Below are positions 6,776 through 54,108 of a stretch of 64,000 bases of DNA, in pieces. Made by a program: the position numbers and the translations under genes. Source of the DNA: Planctomycetota bacterium (lineage in GTDB: Bacteria; Planctomycetota; SZUA-567; H5-PLA8). Positions within the stretch are counted from its first letter, which is position 1; each line of letters starts with the position of its first letter. A model generated the notes under the pieces. It ran no database searches. It was not told the DNA's origin and saw only the letters and a list, made by a program, of their open reading frames with translations. The DNA lies in assembly GCA_037129555.1 (NCBI GenBank), contig JBAXUS010000005.1:7086-71085 (forward strand), in the 5' to 3' direction.

Positions 6776-6888
6776 ATTTGTCATTTGTGATTTGTCATTT
6801 GGTATTTGTCATTTGAACAACAACAGCGCCTTCGCATCGGTCGCTGTTAAATGACAAATCACAAATGACAATTGACAAATGACAAATG
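6776..6888. repeat. AT-rich palindromic array: three direct copies of ATTTGTCATTTG (14-bp period) mirrored by three inverted copies (CAAATGACAAAT) around a 13-nt centre
   Basis: Read directly. Left arm is t-ATTTGTCATTTG-tg-ATTTGTCATTTG-gt-ATTTGTCATTTG-aacaacaacagcg. Right arm is cgctgtt-aAATGACAAAT-cac-AAATGACAAt-tga-CAAATGACAAAT-g. It lies between the rtcB stop (6767) and the ftsY start (7040). Confidence 0.85.
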
Positions 6889-37773: not shown

Positions 37774-38141
37774 GTAGAGCGCCCTTTCTTCCAGTACGTT
37801 TGAAGATGCCTATCAGGCATCGGTCTCGCTTCGCATAACGATCATCGGTCATTTTGAGCTTCGCCCGATACTCAATTCGGGAGAAAGCTGACGACACGTT
37901 GATGCGATAGCTATGTGACCCAAGTATTATCGGCCATTCGCACTGGGGGCTTCATAAAAATCTTCGCCTCATTTTAAGAGTTCTAATCGGCGCGCGAGAA
38001 TTCACCGAAAAGAAGAGTACACTCCGTAGTCTACCTCACGACGTGCACGTGTCTATCAAGTTGGCGAGGAAAAGTTGAGCGGAACTATGCACATGCGCTT
38101 TCGCAGGGTCGGAAGATTATGTGTACGCTTTGGCAGGGTGC

Positions 38142-38245
38142 CTTGGAGCAGTACTCTGCTCCAAGCCGTTAGGCGCGAGAGTAATTGAGGGAGAAGATTG
38201 TTTCAAGTGAGCGCGCAAAGGCACGGAGCAGGGTACTGCTCCGTG
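38142..38245. repeat. Two copies of a GGAGCAG-N4-CTGCTCC hairpin motif (10-bp stems) downstream of hisS
   Basis: 38142-38165 CTTGGAGCAG-tact-CTGCTCCAAG; 38222-38245 CACGGAGCAG-ggta-CTGCTCCGTG. A third copy at 45398-45415 is the exact reverse complement of the first 18-mer. Confidence 0.7.
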
Positions 38246-38262
38246 GCACCCGGCCGTCGCTC

Positions 38263-40131: not shown

Positions 40132-40312
40132 TTCGATACCTTGGTTGGTCTGAGAATTTAAAATGATTCGGCGTGTAAATCCGCGCGCAAATTTTATGTC
40201 GCCCTTTCAGGGCTTGGATTTCTATGGGCGACGGACCTAGGGCTGCGCGAGTACGCTTAGCCCTAGGCTATATCATGCCGCCCCATTCGGGGCTGAAAAA
40301 TCGGGGCTGAAA

Positions 40313-49732: not shown

Positions 49733-49826
49733 CCAAACCTGCTGCGAATTGTGAAGATCGTGTTGTGAGATTTGAGTCCGCTTGTATAGTCGAATTCTCT
49801 TGATTCGACATTTCGATAGACATTGG

Positions 49827-52391
49827 ACCGCCATGACTTCCACACCGCCAGACGCAATCGTAAAAGCATCATCGGCCTGGCGCACGGGCTATGCCGCCAA
49901 GCTGGGCGTGTTTGATGAGATGGTGTCCGCGCGGGGGGAAATCCATCCGCATTGGTCGAGTTTTGTCGAGCATATGGATGCGATGGGCGCGGCTGAAATT
50001 TCACGACGCTGGGAGTTGGCGCTGCGGACGCTTCACGAGAATGGCGTGTCGTACAACGTGTATGGCGATCCGCATGGAATCGATCGACCGTGGGTGTTGG
50101 ACGCGGTGCCGATGATGATTTCGGCGCGCGAATGGAGCGGCTTGGAGCGCTCGCTGATTCAACGCGCGCGTTTGTTGAATCTGATTCTCGCGGATATTTA
50201 CGGGCCGCAAAAACTGCTCAAAGAGGGTGTGCTGCCTCCGGAGTTGATCTACGCGCATCCGGGATTTTTGCGTCCGTGTCATGGCGTGGCGCTGCCGGGT
50301 AATCTGCATCTGCATTTGTATTCAGCGGACATAGCGCGTTCGCCTGATGGAACGTGGTCGGTGATCGGCGACGGGACGCAAGCGCCAGCCGGGGCGGGTT
50401 ACGCGCTTGAAAACCGCATCGTGTTGTCGCGTATTTTTCCGGATATTTTCAAAGAGTGTCATGCGCAGCGTCTGGCGATGTATTTCCGGCGTATCCGTGA
50501 AACGTTGCGCGGACTGGCGTATTACAATCGCGATAATCCGCGTATCGTTCTGCTCACGCCGGGGCCGTACCACGAGACGTATTTTGAGCACGCGTATCTG
50601 GCGCGGTATTTGAATTACACGCTGGTGGAAGGCGGCGATTTGACCGTGCGCGACCAGTGCGTGTATTTGAAAACGCTGGGTGGGCTGCATCGCGTCGATG
50701 TGATTTTACGGCGGCTGGATGACGACTATTGTGACCCGCTTGAATTGAATCCGGAATCGTTTTTGGGTGTGCCGGGATTGATGCAGGCGGTGCGCGCGGG
50801 GAACGTGGCGATTTCGAATCCGCTGGGCAGCGGGTTGGCGGAGTCACCGGCGTTGAAGCCGTTTTTGCCGGACTTGTGCAAGCATTTGCTGGGCGAAGAT
50901 CTGTTACTCCCGTCGGTGCCGAGCCATTGGTGCGGGAAGCGTGCGTCGATGGATTACGCGCTGGATAATCTTGAGCGGATGATTGTAAAAGCGTCGTATC
51001 CGGAGCGTGGGATTGAGTCTGTTTTTTGTGGGCGGCTGTCGATTGTTCAACGTGAAAAGCTTAAGGAAAAAATCCGGGCGCGACCCGCGTTTTATGTTGC
51101 TCAAGAGCAGGTGGAACTGTCGACGGCACCGGTGCTGGTTGAGAATCGGATACAGCCGCGACACGCAGTTTTGCGGACGTATCTCGCGGCGTCTGAAGGA
51201 ACGTACAGCGCTATGCCGGGCGGATTGACCCAGGTGCCGACGTCGGCTGAAGCGCATGTGTTTTCGTTGCAGCGCGGGGCCGGGAGCAAGGATACGTGGG
51301 TGCAGTCGTCGGGGCCTGTGAGCACCTTTAGTTTGCTCAGACCAAAGGGTGACGCGATTGAATTGACGCGCGGCGGGAATGATTTGCCGAGTCGCGTGGC
51401 GGACAATTTGTACTGGCTTGGGCGCTATGTAGAGCGCGCTGAAAATGCGGTGCGGTTGATGCGAGGAATCGCGAATCGGATTTCGGACAAATCGATATGG
51501 GGGGAAGTCCGAGAATTGTCGGACCTCATGCGCGCGCTATGTCACCAGGGTGGTATGGCATGTGGATTGGATTCGGTTCATTCGGCGGAAACGGTGACGC
51601 AAGGCGATGAGTTGACACTTCTTTTAGAACAGAGTCGTCGTCCGGGCGGATTGCATTCAACATTGCAGTCGCTGCAATTTGTGTCGCGAGCGGTGCGCGA
51701 TCGAATTTCCACGGATACGTGGCGCGTGGTAAACAGTTTGAACGAAGACGCGGTGTGGCCGGACGACTTGGATTCGACACGACTGAGTGAGATTATCGAG
51801 CGGCTCAACATGATGGTGACGACGCTGGCGTCGTTCGGCGGGTTGGCGAGCGAGAGCATGACCCGCGGGCAGGTGTGGATTTTTATGGACATGGGCCGGC
51901 GGTTGGAGCGGACGGTCAGCATGGCCGGGCTGTTGCGCAGCACGCTGGTGACGCCGGTGAAGGAAGACAGCACACTGCTCGAATCCGTCTTGGAAGTTGG
52001 CGATAGTTTCATGACGTATCGCCGCCGGTATTTGGCGAATTTGCAACTCGCGCCGGTGCTGGATTTGTTGCTTGCGGACGAGACAAATCCGCGCTCGATT
52101 GCGTTTCAATACGTGATGTTGAACGAGCATATTGAGAGTTTGCCGCGCGATCGGACGCTTGCGCATCTGTCGCCAGAACAGCGGGTGACGGTGGGTGGAT
52201 TGGCGTCGTTGCGGTTACAGGAAATTGAAGAATTGTGCCAGTTGGACGCGCAGGGCAAGCGCGGGAATCTCGCGCATTTGCTGACGCGCGTGGATGAAGA
52301 CATGGCGGCGCTTTCGGATATTGTCACGCGACAGTTCCTGAGCCACGCCCAAGCCTCGCGGCAACTCGCGAGTTTCAACATGGAAGGTTAG
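49827..52391 (+). CDS. Circularly permuted ATP-grasp type 2 protein fused to a C-terminal alpha-E domain
   Basis: N-terminal region matches the CP-ATP-grasp family (…HWSSFVEHMDAMGAAEISRRWELALRTLHENGVSYNVYGDPHGIDRPWVLDAVPMMISAREW…). The C-terminal ~300 aa begin with the alpha-E signature (…SRVADNLYWLGRYVERAENAVRLMR…). Start taken at MTSTPPD (49827). Confidence 0.7.
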   Translation, partial: TAMTSTPPDAIVKASSAWRTGYAAKLGVFDEMVSARGEIHPHWSSFVEHMDAMGAAEISRRWELALRTLHENGVSYNVYGDPHGIDRPWVLDAVPMMISAREWSGLERSLIQRARLLNLILADIYGPQKLLKEGVLPPELIYAHPGFLRPCHGVALPGNLHLHLYSADIARSPDGTWSVIGDGTQAPAGAGYALENRIVLSRIFPDIFKECHAQRLAMYFRRIRETLRGLAYYNRDNPRIVLLTPGPYHETYFEHAYLARYLNYTLVEGGDLTVRDQCVYLKTLGGLHRVDVILRRLDDDYCDPLELNPESFLGVPGLMQAVRAGNVAISNPLGSGLAESPALKPFLPDLCKHLLGEDLLLPSVPSHWCGKRASMDYALDNLERMIVKASYPERGIESVFCGRLSIVQREKLKEKIRARPAFYVAQEQVELSTAPVLVENRIQPRHAVLRTYLAASEGTYSAMPGGLTQVPTSAEAHVFSLQRGAGSKDTWVQSSGPVSTFSLLRPKGDAIELTRGGNDLPSRVADNLYWLGRYVERAENAVRLMRGIANRISDKSIWGEVRELSDLMRALCHQGGMACGLDSVHSAETVTQGDELTLLLEQSRRPGGLHSTLQSLQFVSRAVRDRISTDTWRVVNSLNEDAVWPDDLDSTRLSEIIERLNMMVTTLASFGGLASESMTRGQVWIFMDMGRRLERTVSMAGLLRSTLVTPVKEDSTLLESVLEVGDSFMTYRRRYLANLQLAPVLDLLLADETNPRSIAFQYVMLNEHIESLPRDRTLAHLSPEQRVTVGGLASLRLQEIEELCQLDAQGKRGNLAHLLTRVDEDMAALSDIVTRQFLSHAQASRQLASFNMEG

Positions 52392-52550
52392 TGGTTCGGC
52401 AATGCTAATTTGATAGATCTGCTTGCGTCTTTTTGCTTGGCTCTTCGTTGTATGCTCAGTTAGAGATTCATTAATATCTTCCTGAGCATACGCCTCGATC
52501 CAGACAAAAATACGCGGCGCATATCTATCAAATTAACCTTGCCGAACCAC
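52391..52550. repeat. 160-bp nested inverted-repeat element (28-bp terminal inverted repeats enclosing a 10-bp inner stem)
   Basis: Left repeat 52391-52418 GTGGTTCGGCAAtgcTAATTTGATAGAT. Right repeat 52523-52550 ATCTATCAAATTAaccTTGCCGAACCAC (25 of 28 complementary). Inner GTATGCTCAG (52450-59) / CTGAGCATAC (52482-91). The interior is AT-rich. It overlaps the stop codon of the ATP-grasp gene. Confidence 0.7.
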
Positions 52551-52581
52551 TCGCGGCTTTCGCGCCCGAGAAACAAAGCCC

Positions 52582-54108
52582 ATGCCTGACACCATCATCG
52601 CTGTGTCTAGTCCGTCTGTGAGTCTCGCGAACGCTTCGCCGGGAATGGTGCCATGCTCCATGATCCGGCTTTCGGGGCCGGATGCAGGGCGGTGCGCGGA
52701 TACGGTTTTTACAATCCATCAACCTGAACATACGACACGATCGGCGAGTTCGATTGGGCTTCGTCCGAAACATGAGGCGCATCGAATTCCGGCGACGGTG
52801 ACGGATGCGCTGTCTGAAAAAAAATGGCGACGAATTGTGGGACGAGTTGTGTGGCGGGGGAACGAGTTGAATGCGCATGTGTACGTCATGCCTGCGCCGC
52901 GCAGTTACACACGTGAGGATGTTGTCGAACTGCATGTGCCGGGATTGCCGTGGGTGGTGGAGACATTGTTGGATGGATTGATCGCGTCGGGCGCTCGGAC
53001 GGCGCAGCCGGGTGAATTTACGCGGCGGGCGTTTGAGCATGGTCGGATCACGCTGGAGCAGGCTGAAGCGGTTGGGAAATTGATTGCGAGTTCATCCGCC
53101 GATGAAGCGCGCGCGCATGCGTCTCAGTTGGCGGTTCATTCGGGTGTGCAGCGCCGGGTGTTGAAAAAAGACATTGAGGATTTGCTGGCGCAAGTGGAAC
53201 TCGGTTTGGATTTTTCGCATGAAGATGTAATCGTGATTTCGTTGGAGGAGATGGCGACTCGATTGGACGCGTTGCGGGCGCGGGCGGTGAAATTGGCGGA
53301 CGAATCTTCGCATGAATTTGAGCGGGCACCAGCGACGCGTGCGCCGCGCATTGTTCTTGTTGGGCCGACGAATGCAGGGAAGAGCCAGCTCTTTAATACA
53401 TTGTTGAAACGCGATGCGGCGATAGTGAGTTCGGAGCGGCACACGACGCGTGATGGAGTTGAGGCGGTGCTGAAATTTGGTGGCTCGGTTCCGGATGCCG
53501 TGTTGATTGACAGCGCTGGGAGCGGGGATTTAGGCGGAGTGGATGCGGAGCTTTTTTCGGCAGCGCGAACGGCGACGCGCCGGGAATTGGAGATGGCGGA
53601 TATTGTGTTGCTCGCGCTGGACCGATCGGTGGCGATGGAGCAGCAGGAGAATTTCGCAGCGTTATTGAAAGATGTGAAGGCGTTGACCCCAGCGTATTCG
53701 GCGTTGGTTTGGACGAAGAGCGATCTTGCGGCTCCTGCGAATTGGGATGCCGGGATGCAGTTGGGTTGGGACGTCACACAGCGATTTGAAGTGTCGTCGG
53801 TGTCGGGGCGCGGTGTTGATGCGCTGCGAGAATTTTTGGCTCAACGGACGTCTGAGTTGGCGCAACGGACCGCGCAGGCTCATGCGGCAGCGGGGGCGTC
53901 GGTGCGGGCATCGGCACTCAGTGCGGCTGATGCGCTTGAACGGGCGTCAGGCGCGTTGCGAGACGGATGTGGCGAGGATGTGGTAGCGGTAGAATTGCGC
54001 GAAGCGATTCACGCGTTTTGGCGGGCTGAAGGGATATTAATGCGCCACGATGCGGTGACGGAAGCGGCGCTCGATATTATTTTCTCGCAATTCTGCGTCG
54101 GAAAGTAA
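52582..54108 (+). CDS. mnmE: tRNA modification GTPase MnmE (TrmE)
   Basis: N-terminal …DTIIAVSSP… block, G domain (LVGPTNAGKSQLFNTL, DSAG), and the C-terminal C-V-G-K motif characteristic of MnmE. Confidence 0.85.
   Translation: MPDTIIAVSSPSVSLANASPGMVPCSMIRLSGPDAGRCADTVFTIHQPEHTTRSASSIGLRPKHEAHRIPATVTDALSEKKWRRIVGRVVWRGNELNAHVYVMPAPRSYTREDVVELHVPGLPWVVETLLDGLIASGARTAQPGEFTRRAFEHGRITLEQAEAVGKLIASSSADEARAHASQLAVHSGVQRRVLKKDIEDLLAQVELGLDFSHEDVIVISLEEMATRLDALRARAVKLADESSHEFERAPATRAPRIVLVGPTNAGKSQLFNTLLKRDAAIVSSERHTTRDGVEAVLKFGGSVPDAVLIDSAGSGDLGGVDAELFSAARTATRRELEMADIVLLALDRSVAMEQQENFAALLKDVKALTPAYSALVWTKSDLAAPANWDAGMQLGWDVTQRFEVSSVSGRGVDALREFLAQRTSELAQRTAQAHAAAGASVRASALSAADALERASGALRDGCGEDVVAVELREAIHAFWRAEGILMRHDAVTEAALDIIFSQFCVGK

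What the first reader, a model, noticed from the sequence alone, without database searches (positions are those of the whole stretch)
52391..52550. Nested inverted-repeat element overlapping the stop codon of the ATP-grasp gene, upstream of mnmE
28-bp terminal inverted repeats (GTGGTTCGGCAAtgcTAATTTGATAGAT and its complement, 25 of 28 matching) enclose ~104 nt of AT-rich sequence that contains a further 10-bp stem (GTATGCTCAG/CTGAGCATAC). The architecture resembles a MITE, with terminal repeats, AT-rich interior and small size. It could also fold into a long-stem structured RNA, for example an sRNA or a 5' leader of mnmE. No obvious target-site duplication flanks it.
Basis: seen in the sequence. 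Interest (0 to 1): 0.55.

Follow-up and report, generated by a model that had tools for sequence, protein, structure and literature searches.

The report
Small palindromic mobile repeat (MITE)
The 160-base hairpin-forming sequence between the ATP-grasp gene and mnmE is one copy of a small, non-coding, dispersed repeat (a miniature transposon, MITE) with at least four copies in this uncultured Planctomycetota genome; it is an ordinary kind of element, but this family has not been described.

Summary
Window 52390-52551 is a 162-nt near-perfect palindrome made of three nested inverted repeats. It folds into one long hairpin (RNA -80 to -86 kcal/mol, z about -10 to -12) and is 40% GC in a 56% GC genome. 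Its first bases complete the TAG stop codon of the CP-ATP-grasp/Alpha-E gene, and it ends 30 nt before the mnmE start codon.

It is not single-copy. Three more full-length copies, 88-95% identical, lie at unrelated loci. Protein accessions and the WCT04 locus-tag prefix place all four in one Planctomycetota MAG. A rearranged remnant lies in a second, distant Planctomycetota MAG.

The dinucleotide TA flanks the GTGG...CCAC core at 6 of 9 junctions, against a 1.9% background. Orientation relative to neighbouring genes is mixed. There is no Rfam match, no terminator or promoter consensus and no convincing ORF. An orthologous gene pair in two relatives lacks the element (spacers of 77-87 nt against 259 nt).

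Best reading: a new family of TA-flanked bacterial MITE, built like Correia, RUP and ERIC elements. No autonomous partner transposase was found, so the IS630-type mechanism is inferred. Three compensatory stem changes and an almost invariant mid-stem hint at constraint on the hairpin, but four copies cannot prove it. This is a new member of a known kind, of modest interest.

The parts
52390..52551 (.). The whole element: a 162-nt imperfect palindrome (core GTGG...CCAC = 52391-52550), one copy of a dispersed repeat family
   Evidence: Nested inverted repeats. Single long hairpin on both strands. Full-length homologues at L014 2240-2403(-), L015 1-162(+) and L017 3873-4036(+).
52390..52422 (.). 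Left terminal inverted repeat (33 nt)
   Evidence: pair I1, 91% complementary to the right arm. Matches the pattern.
52519..52551 (.). Right terminal inverted repeat (33 nt). Its outer 26 nt is 92-96% conserved in a second Planctomycetota MAG (L012).
52425..52515 (.). Middle stem (arms 52425-52443 / 52497-52515). It lies within the part that is almost invariant among the four copies.
   Evidence: pair I3. Only 1 of 64 mid-stem columns varies, against 23 of 98 elsewhere.
52450..52491 (.). Apical stem-loop (arms 52450-52468 / 52473-52491). It contains the compensatory pair 62-101 (T-A to C-G).
   Evidence: pair I2
52389..52390 (.). Left flanking TA. It forms the first two bases of the TAG stop codon (52389-52391), whose G is the first base of the element core.
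   Evidence: TA is found at 6 of 9 junctions of the family (P = 4e-9 at a 1.9% background).
52551..52552 (.). Right flanking dinucleotide TC, read as a degenerate TA (putative second copy of a TA target duplication)
49782..52391 (+). Upstream gene: CP-ATP-grasp + Alpha-E fusion protein. Its C-terminus is at the position usual for the family.
   Evidence: Pfam hits. Homologues end within 2-6 residues of the same point.
52582..54108 (+). Downstream gene mnmE (tRNA modification GTPase). Its start codon is 30 nt after the element.
52460..52522 (-). 20-codon ORF (MRRVFLSGSRRMLRKILMNL) intact in all four copies. Judged incidental.
   Evidence: Changes among copies: 1 synonymous, 4 non-synonymous, 1 stop-to-stop. 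No match in the protein database.

Best explanation
The element is a copy of a previously undescribed miniature inverted-repeat transposable element (MITE) family of uncultured Planctomycetota. It is a 160-nt non-coding, A+T-rich, almost fully palindromic unit with about 30-nt terminal inverted repeats and TA at its ends. It spread to several places in this genome by borrowing a transposase encoded elsewhere. That transposase is most likely a DDE enzyme of the IS630/Tc1-mariner type, which inserts at TA and duplicates it. In the window it landed in the TA of the stop codon of the CP-ATP-grasp/Alpha-E gene. The element's first G regenerated a TAG stop, so the protein was left intact, and a roughly 28-nt spacer before mnmE grew to 190 nt. 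Any transcript that reads through from the upstream gene into mnmE will contain a very stable hairpin of about 65 base pairs. By analogy with Correia and ERIC elements, such a hairpin is a likely substrate for double-strand-specific or structure-sensitive RNases and could uncouple the stability of the two cistrons.

Shown: the structure, multi-copy dispersal within one genome, presence in a second genome, the TA flanks, absence from relatives' equivalent spacers, the lack of a convincing ORF, and mixed orientation.

Inferred: the class of transposase, TA as a true target duplication, insertion into the stop codon, and any effect on RNA.
For: Structure and composition.

Four full-length copies, 88-95% identical, at unrelated loci (mnmE; sulfatase; GT4/MtnA; TlpA/DUF4432).

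All four are in one MAG. Protein accessions MEI6231720-MEI6236688 form one series. Locus tags WCT04_01605/01645/01755 (window), WCT04_16210 (L017) and WCT04_26825 (L014).

A remnant lies in MAG JBBRQD01 (L012 5520-5608), with 25 of 26 arm bases matching and the 9-nt opposite terminus in place. That MAG's DUF4432 orthologue is only 45% identical in protein, so the element's sequence is far better conserved than vertical neutral descent would allow.

TA at 6 of 9 junctions, and on both sides in L017.

The Redoxin-to-DUF4432 spacer is 87 nt (L031) and 77 nt (L033) without the element, against 259 nt with it (L017/L030).

Relatives' mnmE upstream regions lack the element.

Assemblies break at the element (L003 starts inside the invariant 32-mer; the L015 contig starts at GTGG), as expected for a repeat.

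No Rfam family, terminator or promoter consensus.

The C-terminus of the upstream protein is unaltered.

The features match the published definition of bacterial MITEs (under 200 bp, TIR, terminal TA, A+T-rich, long stem-loop transcripts): PMC2229807. TA duplication by the IS630 family: PMC2170065.
Against: No autonomous element with matching terminal repeats was found. No transposase lies in the 64-kb window or any locus held, and there was no hit in plasmid or viral collections.

Only one copy (L017) has TA on both sides. No empty site is available at nucleotide resolution, so TA could be part of the repeat rather than a duplication.

Only four or five copies are known. The searches required an exact 19-base arm, so the true number is unknown.

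Variation among copies is concentrated in the terminal arms and the apical loop, while the mid-stem is nearly invariant. That is the opposite of the simple expectation that transposase-bound ends are the conserved part.

Three of the four copies share mismatches in the outer stem.
Confidence: 0.8

Rival explanations
1. A hairpin-dependent mobile or domesticated repeat of the REP/REPIN type, or of the TIR-repeat type linked to tyrosine (HUH) transposases. It would move as single-stranded DNA, recognised through its hairpin rather than through DDE-type terminal repeats, or be kept by the host for an RNA or DNA structural role.
For: The whole element is a hairpin rather than just two repeats around an unrelated core. 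Three stem pairs carry compensatory double changes among only four copies. The mid-stem is nearly invariant while the termini vary. Planctomycetes are known to carry REP families and tyrosine-transposase-associated TIR repeat families (PMC3733652). A GTAG-tagged REP dimer sits inside the L012 remnant, and REP-like hairpins abut the L017 copy. Four of five copies lie 0-8 nt from a stop codon, the usual REP position.
Against: The arms are not themselves short palindromes with a GTAG or CGTC tag and a 5-13-bp stem, so the REP definition is not met (PMC3733652). TA flanks are typical of DDE-type TA-targeting elements, not of HUH elements. The published review states that full-length stem-loops are the norm for ordinary bacterial MITEs. 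Three compensatory pairs in four related sequences is weak evidence: 51 of 500 shuffles reach the same number of pairs. No RAYT or TIRYT gene was seen in any locus.
Confidence: 0.1
2. A dedicated structured RNA: an sRNA gene, or a 5' leader or processing signal that regulates mnmE.
For: A very stable fold that forms on its own within the mRNA context. It lies 30 nt upstream of the mnmE start codon, probably inside a two-gene transcript. Some compensatory changes are present.
Against: No Rfam family matches; the only hits are far-sub-threshold miRNA hairpin models. Relatives' mnmE genes have other upstream genes and no such element. The other copies sit next to unrelated genes and in both orientations relative to transcription. 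One-sided stem changes give G-U on either strand with no clear bias. No promoter-like or terminator-like signals.
Confidence: 0.05
3. A tiny protein-coding or toxin-antitoxin-like module, based on the 20-codon minus-strand ORF MRRVFLSGSRRMLRKILMNL.
For: The start and stop codons of this ORF are intact in all four copies, including a TAA-to-TGA change that keeps the stop.
Against: There are four non-synonymous changes against one synonymous change. The invariant part is invariant at all codon positions and coincides with the conserved stem. No ribosome-binding motif is visible upstream. The peptide is basic rather than hydrophobic, unlike type I toxins. A six-frame protein query found nothing in 5.8 billion proteins.
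Confidence: 0.03
4. An integron attC-like recombination site, or an intrinsic terminator, at the 3' end of the upstream gene.
For: An imperfect palindrome directly after a stop codon. GTTCGGC / GCCGAAC resemble the attC core motifs GTTRRRY / RYYYAAC with one mismatch each (read from the sequence; consensus from my own knowledge).
Against: The order of the two motifs is the reverse of attC. The flanking genes are housekeeping genes, not a cassette array, and no integrase is present in the window. The copies are dispersed on different contigs. No T-run follows the hairpin, and the terminator scan found nothing.
Confidence: 0.02

Closest known systems
Correia elements / NEMIS of Neisseria
   Same: Size of about 107-155 bp, terminal inverted repeats of 24-26 bp, TA at the termini, intergenic and often co-transcribed with neighbours. 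Transcripts fold into long hairpins that RNase III cleaves (PMC2229807). No autonomous partner is known for Correia either.
   Different: No sequence similarity. Different phylum. Correia elements occur in hundreds of copies and carry IHF sites and promoter motifs, none of which is shown here. RNase III processing is untested here.
RUP of Streptococcus pneumoniae (mobilised by IS630-Spn1) and other IS630/Tc1-mariner-derived MITEs (e.g. plant Stowaway)
   Same: Small, non-coding, TA-flanked, hairpin-forming and intergenic. The proposed mechanism is trans-mobilisation by a TA-targeting DDE transposase (PMC2229807, PMC2170065).
   Different: For RUP the matching IS is known. Here no IS with matching ends was found, and the TA duplication is intact in only one of the copies.
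ERIC/IRU and YPAL palindromic units of enterobacteria
   Same: Imperfect palindromes of 127-167 bp spanning the entire unit, located between co-transcribed genes. The effect on mRNA stability depends on orientation (PMC2229807).
   Different: ERIC has only very short terminal repeats and is largely immobile and vertically inherited. The present family has about 30-nt TIRs and occurs in two distantly related genomes.
REP / REPIN elements and RAYT- or TIRYT-associated repeat families
   Same: Hairpin-forming intergenic repeats that prefer the 3' ends of genes. They are present in Planctomycetes (PMC3733652). One such REP dimer is nested in the L012 remnant.
   Different: REP units are 20-40 bp, each a self-complementary stem-loop with a GTAG or CGTC tag. 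The arms of this element are not self-complementary, and the unit is TA-flanked.

Membership tests
Bacterial MITE (as defined in Delihas 2008, PMC2229807) | Small size (about 100-200 bp) | tested here: met
   162-164 nt in all four full copies
Bacterial MITE | Terminal inverted repeats | tested here: met
   33-nt arms, 91% complementary in the window copy. Weaker in the other three copies.
Bacterial MITE | Several dispersed copies at unrelated loci of one genome, with high identity | tested here: met
   Four loci, 88-95% identity, one MAG (WCT04). The total copy number is unknown.
Bacterial MITE | No coding capacity | tested here: met
   Stops in most frames. The only ORF intact in all copies is 20 codons and shows no sign of purifying selection. 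Nothing found in the protein database.
Bacterial MITE | A+T-rich relative to the host genome | tested here: met
   40-42% GC against 56% for the window
Bacterial MITE | 5'-TA-3' at the termini / target-site duplication | tested here: inconclusive
   TA at 6 of 9 junctions (P = 4e-9), but on both sides only in L017. Without a nucleotide-level empty site, a duplication cannot be told apart from an extension of the repeat.
Bacterial MITE | Presence/absence at orthologous sites (mobility) | tested here: inconclusive
   The Redoxin-DUF4432 spacer is 77-87 nt in two relatives against 259 nt with the element. Those relatives are distant (45-49% protein identity), so the spacers cannot be aligned. No close relative of the window locus exists in the databases.
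Bacterial MITE | Transcript or strand folds into a long stem-loop | tested here: met
   Predicted only:
IS630/Tc1-mariner-derived MITE | Terminal repeats matching those of an IS630-family insertion sequence in the same or a related genome | not testable with these tools
   The complete MAG could not be scanned. There is no transposase in the window or loci. The arm pattern found no IS in 185,579 species representatives, where only exact 19-base matches count.
REP / REPIN (RAYT-mobilised) | Unit is a 20-40-bp self-complementary stem-loop tagged by an unpaired GTAG or CGTC | tested here: not met
   The arms have no internal palindrome. The element begins (TA)GTGG but is followed by no local stem.
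REP / REPIN (RAYT-mobilised) | A RAYT gene flanked by the repeats | not testable with these tools
   The genome is not available as a whole
Any Rfam RNA family | Score at or above the family's gathering threshold | tested here: not met
   Best hit 23 bits against a threshold of 100 (a miRNA hairpin model)
Intrinsic terminator | GC-rich hairpin followed by a T-run | tested here: not met
   none found. The sequence after the hairpin is CGCGGCTTTCGCG.
Integron attC site | RYYYAAC ... GTTRRRY in that order, within a cassette array next to intI | tested here: not met
   The motifs are in the opposite order. The neighbours are housekeeping genes and there is no integrase.

The most novel reading that the evidence does not exclude
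The family is more than a decaying parasite: the hairpin itself is under selection. Signs are compensatory changes at three stem pairs, a mid-stem of 64 columns with a single variable position while the supposed transposase-binding ends vary, and arms 96% conserved between genomes whose proteins are about 45% identical. On this reading either it is mobilised through its hairpin by a single-strand (HUH/tyrosine) transposase rather than a DDE enzyme, or it has been recruited by Planctomycetota as an RNA processing or insulator module at operon junctions next to stop codons.
Probability: 0.15. Interest if true: 0.5.

Novelty: new member of a known kind. Interest (0 to 1): 0.3.

Why it matters
MITEs are well known in Proteobacteria, Firmicutes and cyanobacteria. 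I found no description of one in Planctomycetota, a phylum known mostly from MAGs.

In practice the family explains contig breaks in assemblies of this organism. It also gives a marker for strain typing and for tracing horizontal exchange among uncultured Planctomycetota.

Biologically, the window copy shows how a TA-targeting element can settle in a GC-rich genome: it used the TA of a stop codon and regenerated the stop. It places a hairpin of about -80 kcal/mol 30 nt in front of an essential tRNA-modification gene. If the two genes are co-transcribed, this is a natural test case for hairpin-mediated mRNA processing in a phylum whose RNA biology is little studied. None of this changes the view that the element is an ordinary kind of genomic parasite.

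Tried and rejected
1. Rfam, both with permissive E-values on the locus and with gathering thresholds on the whole window: only sub-threshold miRNA hairpin models on the element.

2. Second copy in the window or in relatives' loci, by pattern, blastn-short and nhmmer: none.

3. Orthologous mnmE loci in the nearest relatives (64-68% identity): synteny is not conserved (metK or other genes lie upstream), so there is no empty-site comparison for the window locus.

4. Genome-collection scan: the window's own MAG is not among the species representatives. Two of the three hits were chance.

5. Metagenome scan: four of the nine hits were chance.

6. Concatenated six-frame translations of the element as a protein query, to retrieve spurious ORFs from other copies: nothing at E <= 10.

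7. Viral contigs (two patterns) and plasmids (blastn): nothing real.

8. Search for a partner transposase in the window through gene tables of the source contig: only housekeeping genes.

9. Sigma-70 promoter and intrinsic terminator scans: none.

10. Strand bias of G-U-compatible changes as a test for a strand-specific RNA: about 4-6 events favour the minus strand and 2 favour the plus strand, alongside four invariant plus-strand G-U pairs. No conclusion.

11. attC, terminator, small-protein and mnmE-leader readings were considered and rejected, as listed under rival explanations.

12. Literature search for the terminal sequence: only unrelated primer and tRNA papers.
Full report
**1. The observation**

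The sequence at 52390-52551 reads AGTGGTTCGGCAA...TTGCCGAACCACT. The repeat finder reports three nested inverted repeats:
- 52390-52422 / 52519-52551: 33 nt, 91% complementary
- 52425-52443 / 52497-52515: 19 nt
- 52450-52468 / 52473-52491: 19 nt

The whole 162 nt is therefore one imperfect palindrome, not two repeats around an unrelated core.

As RNA it folds into a single hairpin of -82.5 kcal/mol on the plus strand (z = -9.95) and -86.2 on the minus strand (z = -11.6). None of 200 shuffles folds as well. As DNA the value is -46.6 kcal/mol, z = -10.9. The hairpin also forms on its own within 301 nt of mRNA context.

They agree at 26 of 28 positions. GC falls to 40-42% inside the element, against 56% for the window.

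The upstream ORF (49782-52391) has CP_ATPgrasp_1/2 and Alpha-E domains. The downstream ORF (52582-54108) is MnmE. The stop codon TAG occupies 52389-52391, so its last base is the first base of the GTGG...CCAC core. The element ends 30 nt before the mnmE ATG.

**2. Not a known RNA, terminator or promoter**

A permissive Rfam scan of the locus gave only miRNA hairpin models far below threshold (23 bits against 100). The consensus scans found no intrinsic terminator or sigma-70 promoter on or next to the element.

**3. Source and relatives**

The window matches ENA metagenome contig k141_28269 (76 kb). Its MnmE is annotated at NCBI as coming from a Planctomycetota MAG. Two other assemblies of the same organism carry an identical element.

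The nearest other MnmE proteins are only 64-68% identical. In those contigs mnmE is preceded by metK or other genes, with spacers of 89-114 nt and nothing resembling the element. The element is therefore not a conserved feature of the mnmE upstream region. No close relative exists that could provide an empty site for this locus.

**4. Other copies**

The window holds no second copy.

A scan of 185,579 species-representative genomes with the arm pattern (19 specified bases) gave three hits, about the number expected by chance. Two are chance: AT-rich coding DNA with no second terminus.

The third, L012, lies in Planctomycetota MAG JBBRQD01. It matches 25 of 26 arm bases and has the 9-nt opposite terminus AGTGGTTCG in inverted position 80 nt away. 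It sits in a 102-nt spacer, 4 nt after a stop codon and 9 nt before the next start. Its interior is replaced by a perfect head-to-head pair of GTAG-tagged REP hairpins. I read it as a remnant of the element with a REP dimer inside (compare PMC3733652).

The single metagenome scan gave nine hits. Four are chance. Five represent three loci, each with a full-length homologue of 162-164 nt:
- L014 = L021
- L015
- L017 = L018; the same locus was later fetched as L030

Pairwise identity among the four full copies is 88-95%.

Exact look-ups of the flanking proteins show that all four loci belong to one NCBI MAG. The accessions MEI6231720-MEI6236688 form one series. The locus tags are WCT04_01605/01645/01755 for the window, WCT04_16210 for L017 and WCT04_26825 for L014. 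The element is therefore a dispersed repeat with at least four copies in the window's own genome.

The true number is unknown, because the scan needed an exact arm. Assemblies also break at the element. The Logan contig L003 starts inside the 32-nt block that is invariant among copies, and the L015 contig starts exactly at GTGG.

**5. Contexts**

| Copy | Position |
|---|---|
| Window | Between two co-directional genes, overlapping the upstream stop codon |
| L017 | Between two co-directional genes (TlpA-like and DUF4432-like), 8 nt after the upstream stop, but in the opposite orientation relative to transcription |
| L015 | 8 nt after the stop of a GT4 glycosyltransferase gene, also antisense |
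| L014 | 354 nt upstream of a sulfatase gene, in sense orientation, not at a stop codon |

Mixed orientation and unrelated neighbours argue against a gene-specific or strand-specific RNA.

The Redoxin-to-DUF4432 gene pair of L017 is syntenic in two distant relatives. One of them is the JBBRQD01 MAG. Their spacers are 87 and 77 nt and contain no element, against 259 nt in L017. This is an approximate empty site.

**6. Ends**

The core GTGG...CCAC is flanked by TA at 6 of the 9 junctions that can be read, and on both sides in L017. TA makes up 1.9% of dinucleotides in the window, giving P = 4e-9.

The window copy has TA on the left and TC on the right. If TA is a target duplication, the pre-insertion sequence would have been ...GGT TAG CGG..., with the same stop codon. 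That fits the finding that homologues of the upstream protein end within 2-6 residues of the same position.

TA duplication is the hallmark of the IS630/Tc1-mariner family (PMC2170065). Terminal TA is listed among the typical features of bacterial MITEs (PMC2229807). No transposase gene lies in the window or in any locus held. The class of the mobilising enzyme therefore remains an inference.

**7. Is the hairpin itself constrained?**

On the four-copy alignment, 93% of cells form standard pairs, against 34-46% when partners are slid. Three pairs show changes on both sides:
- 27-136: G-C to C-G
- 28-135: A-T to G-C
- 62-101: T-A to C-G

The covariation score is reached by 2 of 500 shuffles, but the count of such pairs is reached by 51 of 500. 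With four related sequences this is only suggestive.

The minus-strand RNA fold is more stable in every copy. However, one-sided changes produce G-U on either strand without a clear bias.

Variation is unevenly spread:
- outer arms: 15 of 58 columns vary
- inner stem and loop: 8 of 40
- mid-stem: 1 of 64 (Fisher P = 6e-5, with regions chosen after seeing the data)

I cannot explain this pattern with a simple decaying-MITE model. It motivates the minority reading that the hairpin is recognised or selected.

A 20-codon minus-strand ORF is intact in all copies. It shows four non-synonymous changes against one synonymous, and it has no database relatives. I regard it as incidental.

**8. Comparison with known families**

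The element meets the published operational definition of a bacterial MITE in size, terminal repeats, A+T-richness, lack of coding capacity, dispersal in several copies, terminal TA and long stem-loop fold (PMC2229807). Target duplication and presence/absence are supported but not proven.

Its closest analogues in architecture are Correia/NEMIS, RUP and ERIC/YPAL. It shares no sequence with them.

It fails the REP definition, because its arms are not self-complementary tagged stem-loops. It also fails the attC and terminator definitions. I found no paper describing this sequence or any MITE family in Planctomycetota.

**9. Verdict**

This is a real, well-defined feature. It is a new family of a well-known kind of element, found in an uncultured Planctomycetota MAG.

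The likely consequence at this locus is a very stable hairpin in a transcript joining the ATP-grasp gene to mnmE. By analogy with Correia and ERIC elements it might be processed by RNases, but this was not tested.

Noticed in passing
window 6776-6815 and 6849-6888: Two inverted arrays of about 5.7 copies each of the heptamer ATTTGTC / AAATGAC, 33 nt apart. They lie just after the stop of an RtcB-like ORF and upstream of an SRP54/FtsY-like gene. The arrangement is an AT-rich, iteron-like palindrome.
   Followed up: partly
window 38132-38255: 45-nt arms that are 80% complementary. Each arm holds its own hairpin (TTGGAGCAG-TACT-CTGCTCCAAG / ACGGAGCAG-GGTA-CTGCTCCGT). The structure lies directly downstream of a prolyl-tRNA-synthetase-like gene and looks like a REP dimer (REPIN).
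   Followed up: no
window 40236-40294 (+): Acido-Lenti-1 RNA (RF01687) at 40.1 bits, above the gathering score of 37, in a Planctomycetota MAG.
   Followed up: no
L012 5528-5583: A perfect head-to-head dimer of GTAG-tagged REP hairpins (GTAGTTCCGCCTTCAGGCGG - 10 nt - CCGCCTGAAGGCGGAACTAC), nested inside the remnant of the element in MAG JBBRQD01. This is one small repeat inserted into another.
   Followed up: partly
L017 3801-3872: A pair of REP-like hairpins (GAGCGGGA-tgccg-TTCCCGCTC and an inverted relative) abuts the left end of the L017 copy.
   Followed up: no
L003 position 1; L015 position 1: Two independent assemblies break at the element. The k=31 Logan contig starts inside the 32-nt block invariant among copies, and a JGI contig starts exactly at the GTGG terminus. 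This is a typical signature of a multi-copy repeat, and it means copies are under-counted in assemblies.
   Followed up: yes
L030 3468-3926; L014 376-2304: Gene-calling artefacts caused by the element or its surroundings. In L030 the antisense ORF was called instead of the TlpA-like gene. In L014 the longest sulfatase ORF begins at an ATG inside the element, giving a spurious N-terminal extension of about 150 aa.
   Followed up: partly
window 52554-52568 and 52666-52680: A short direct repeat, CGGCTTTCGCGCCCG / CGGCTTTCGGGGCCG, just after the element and inside the 5' end of mnmE (family D2). It is probably chance.
   Followed up: no
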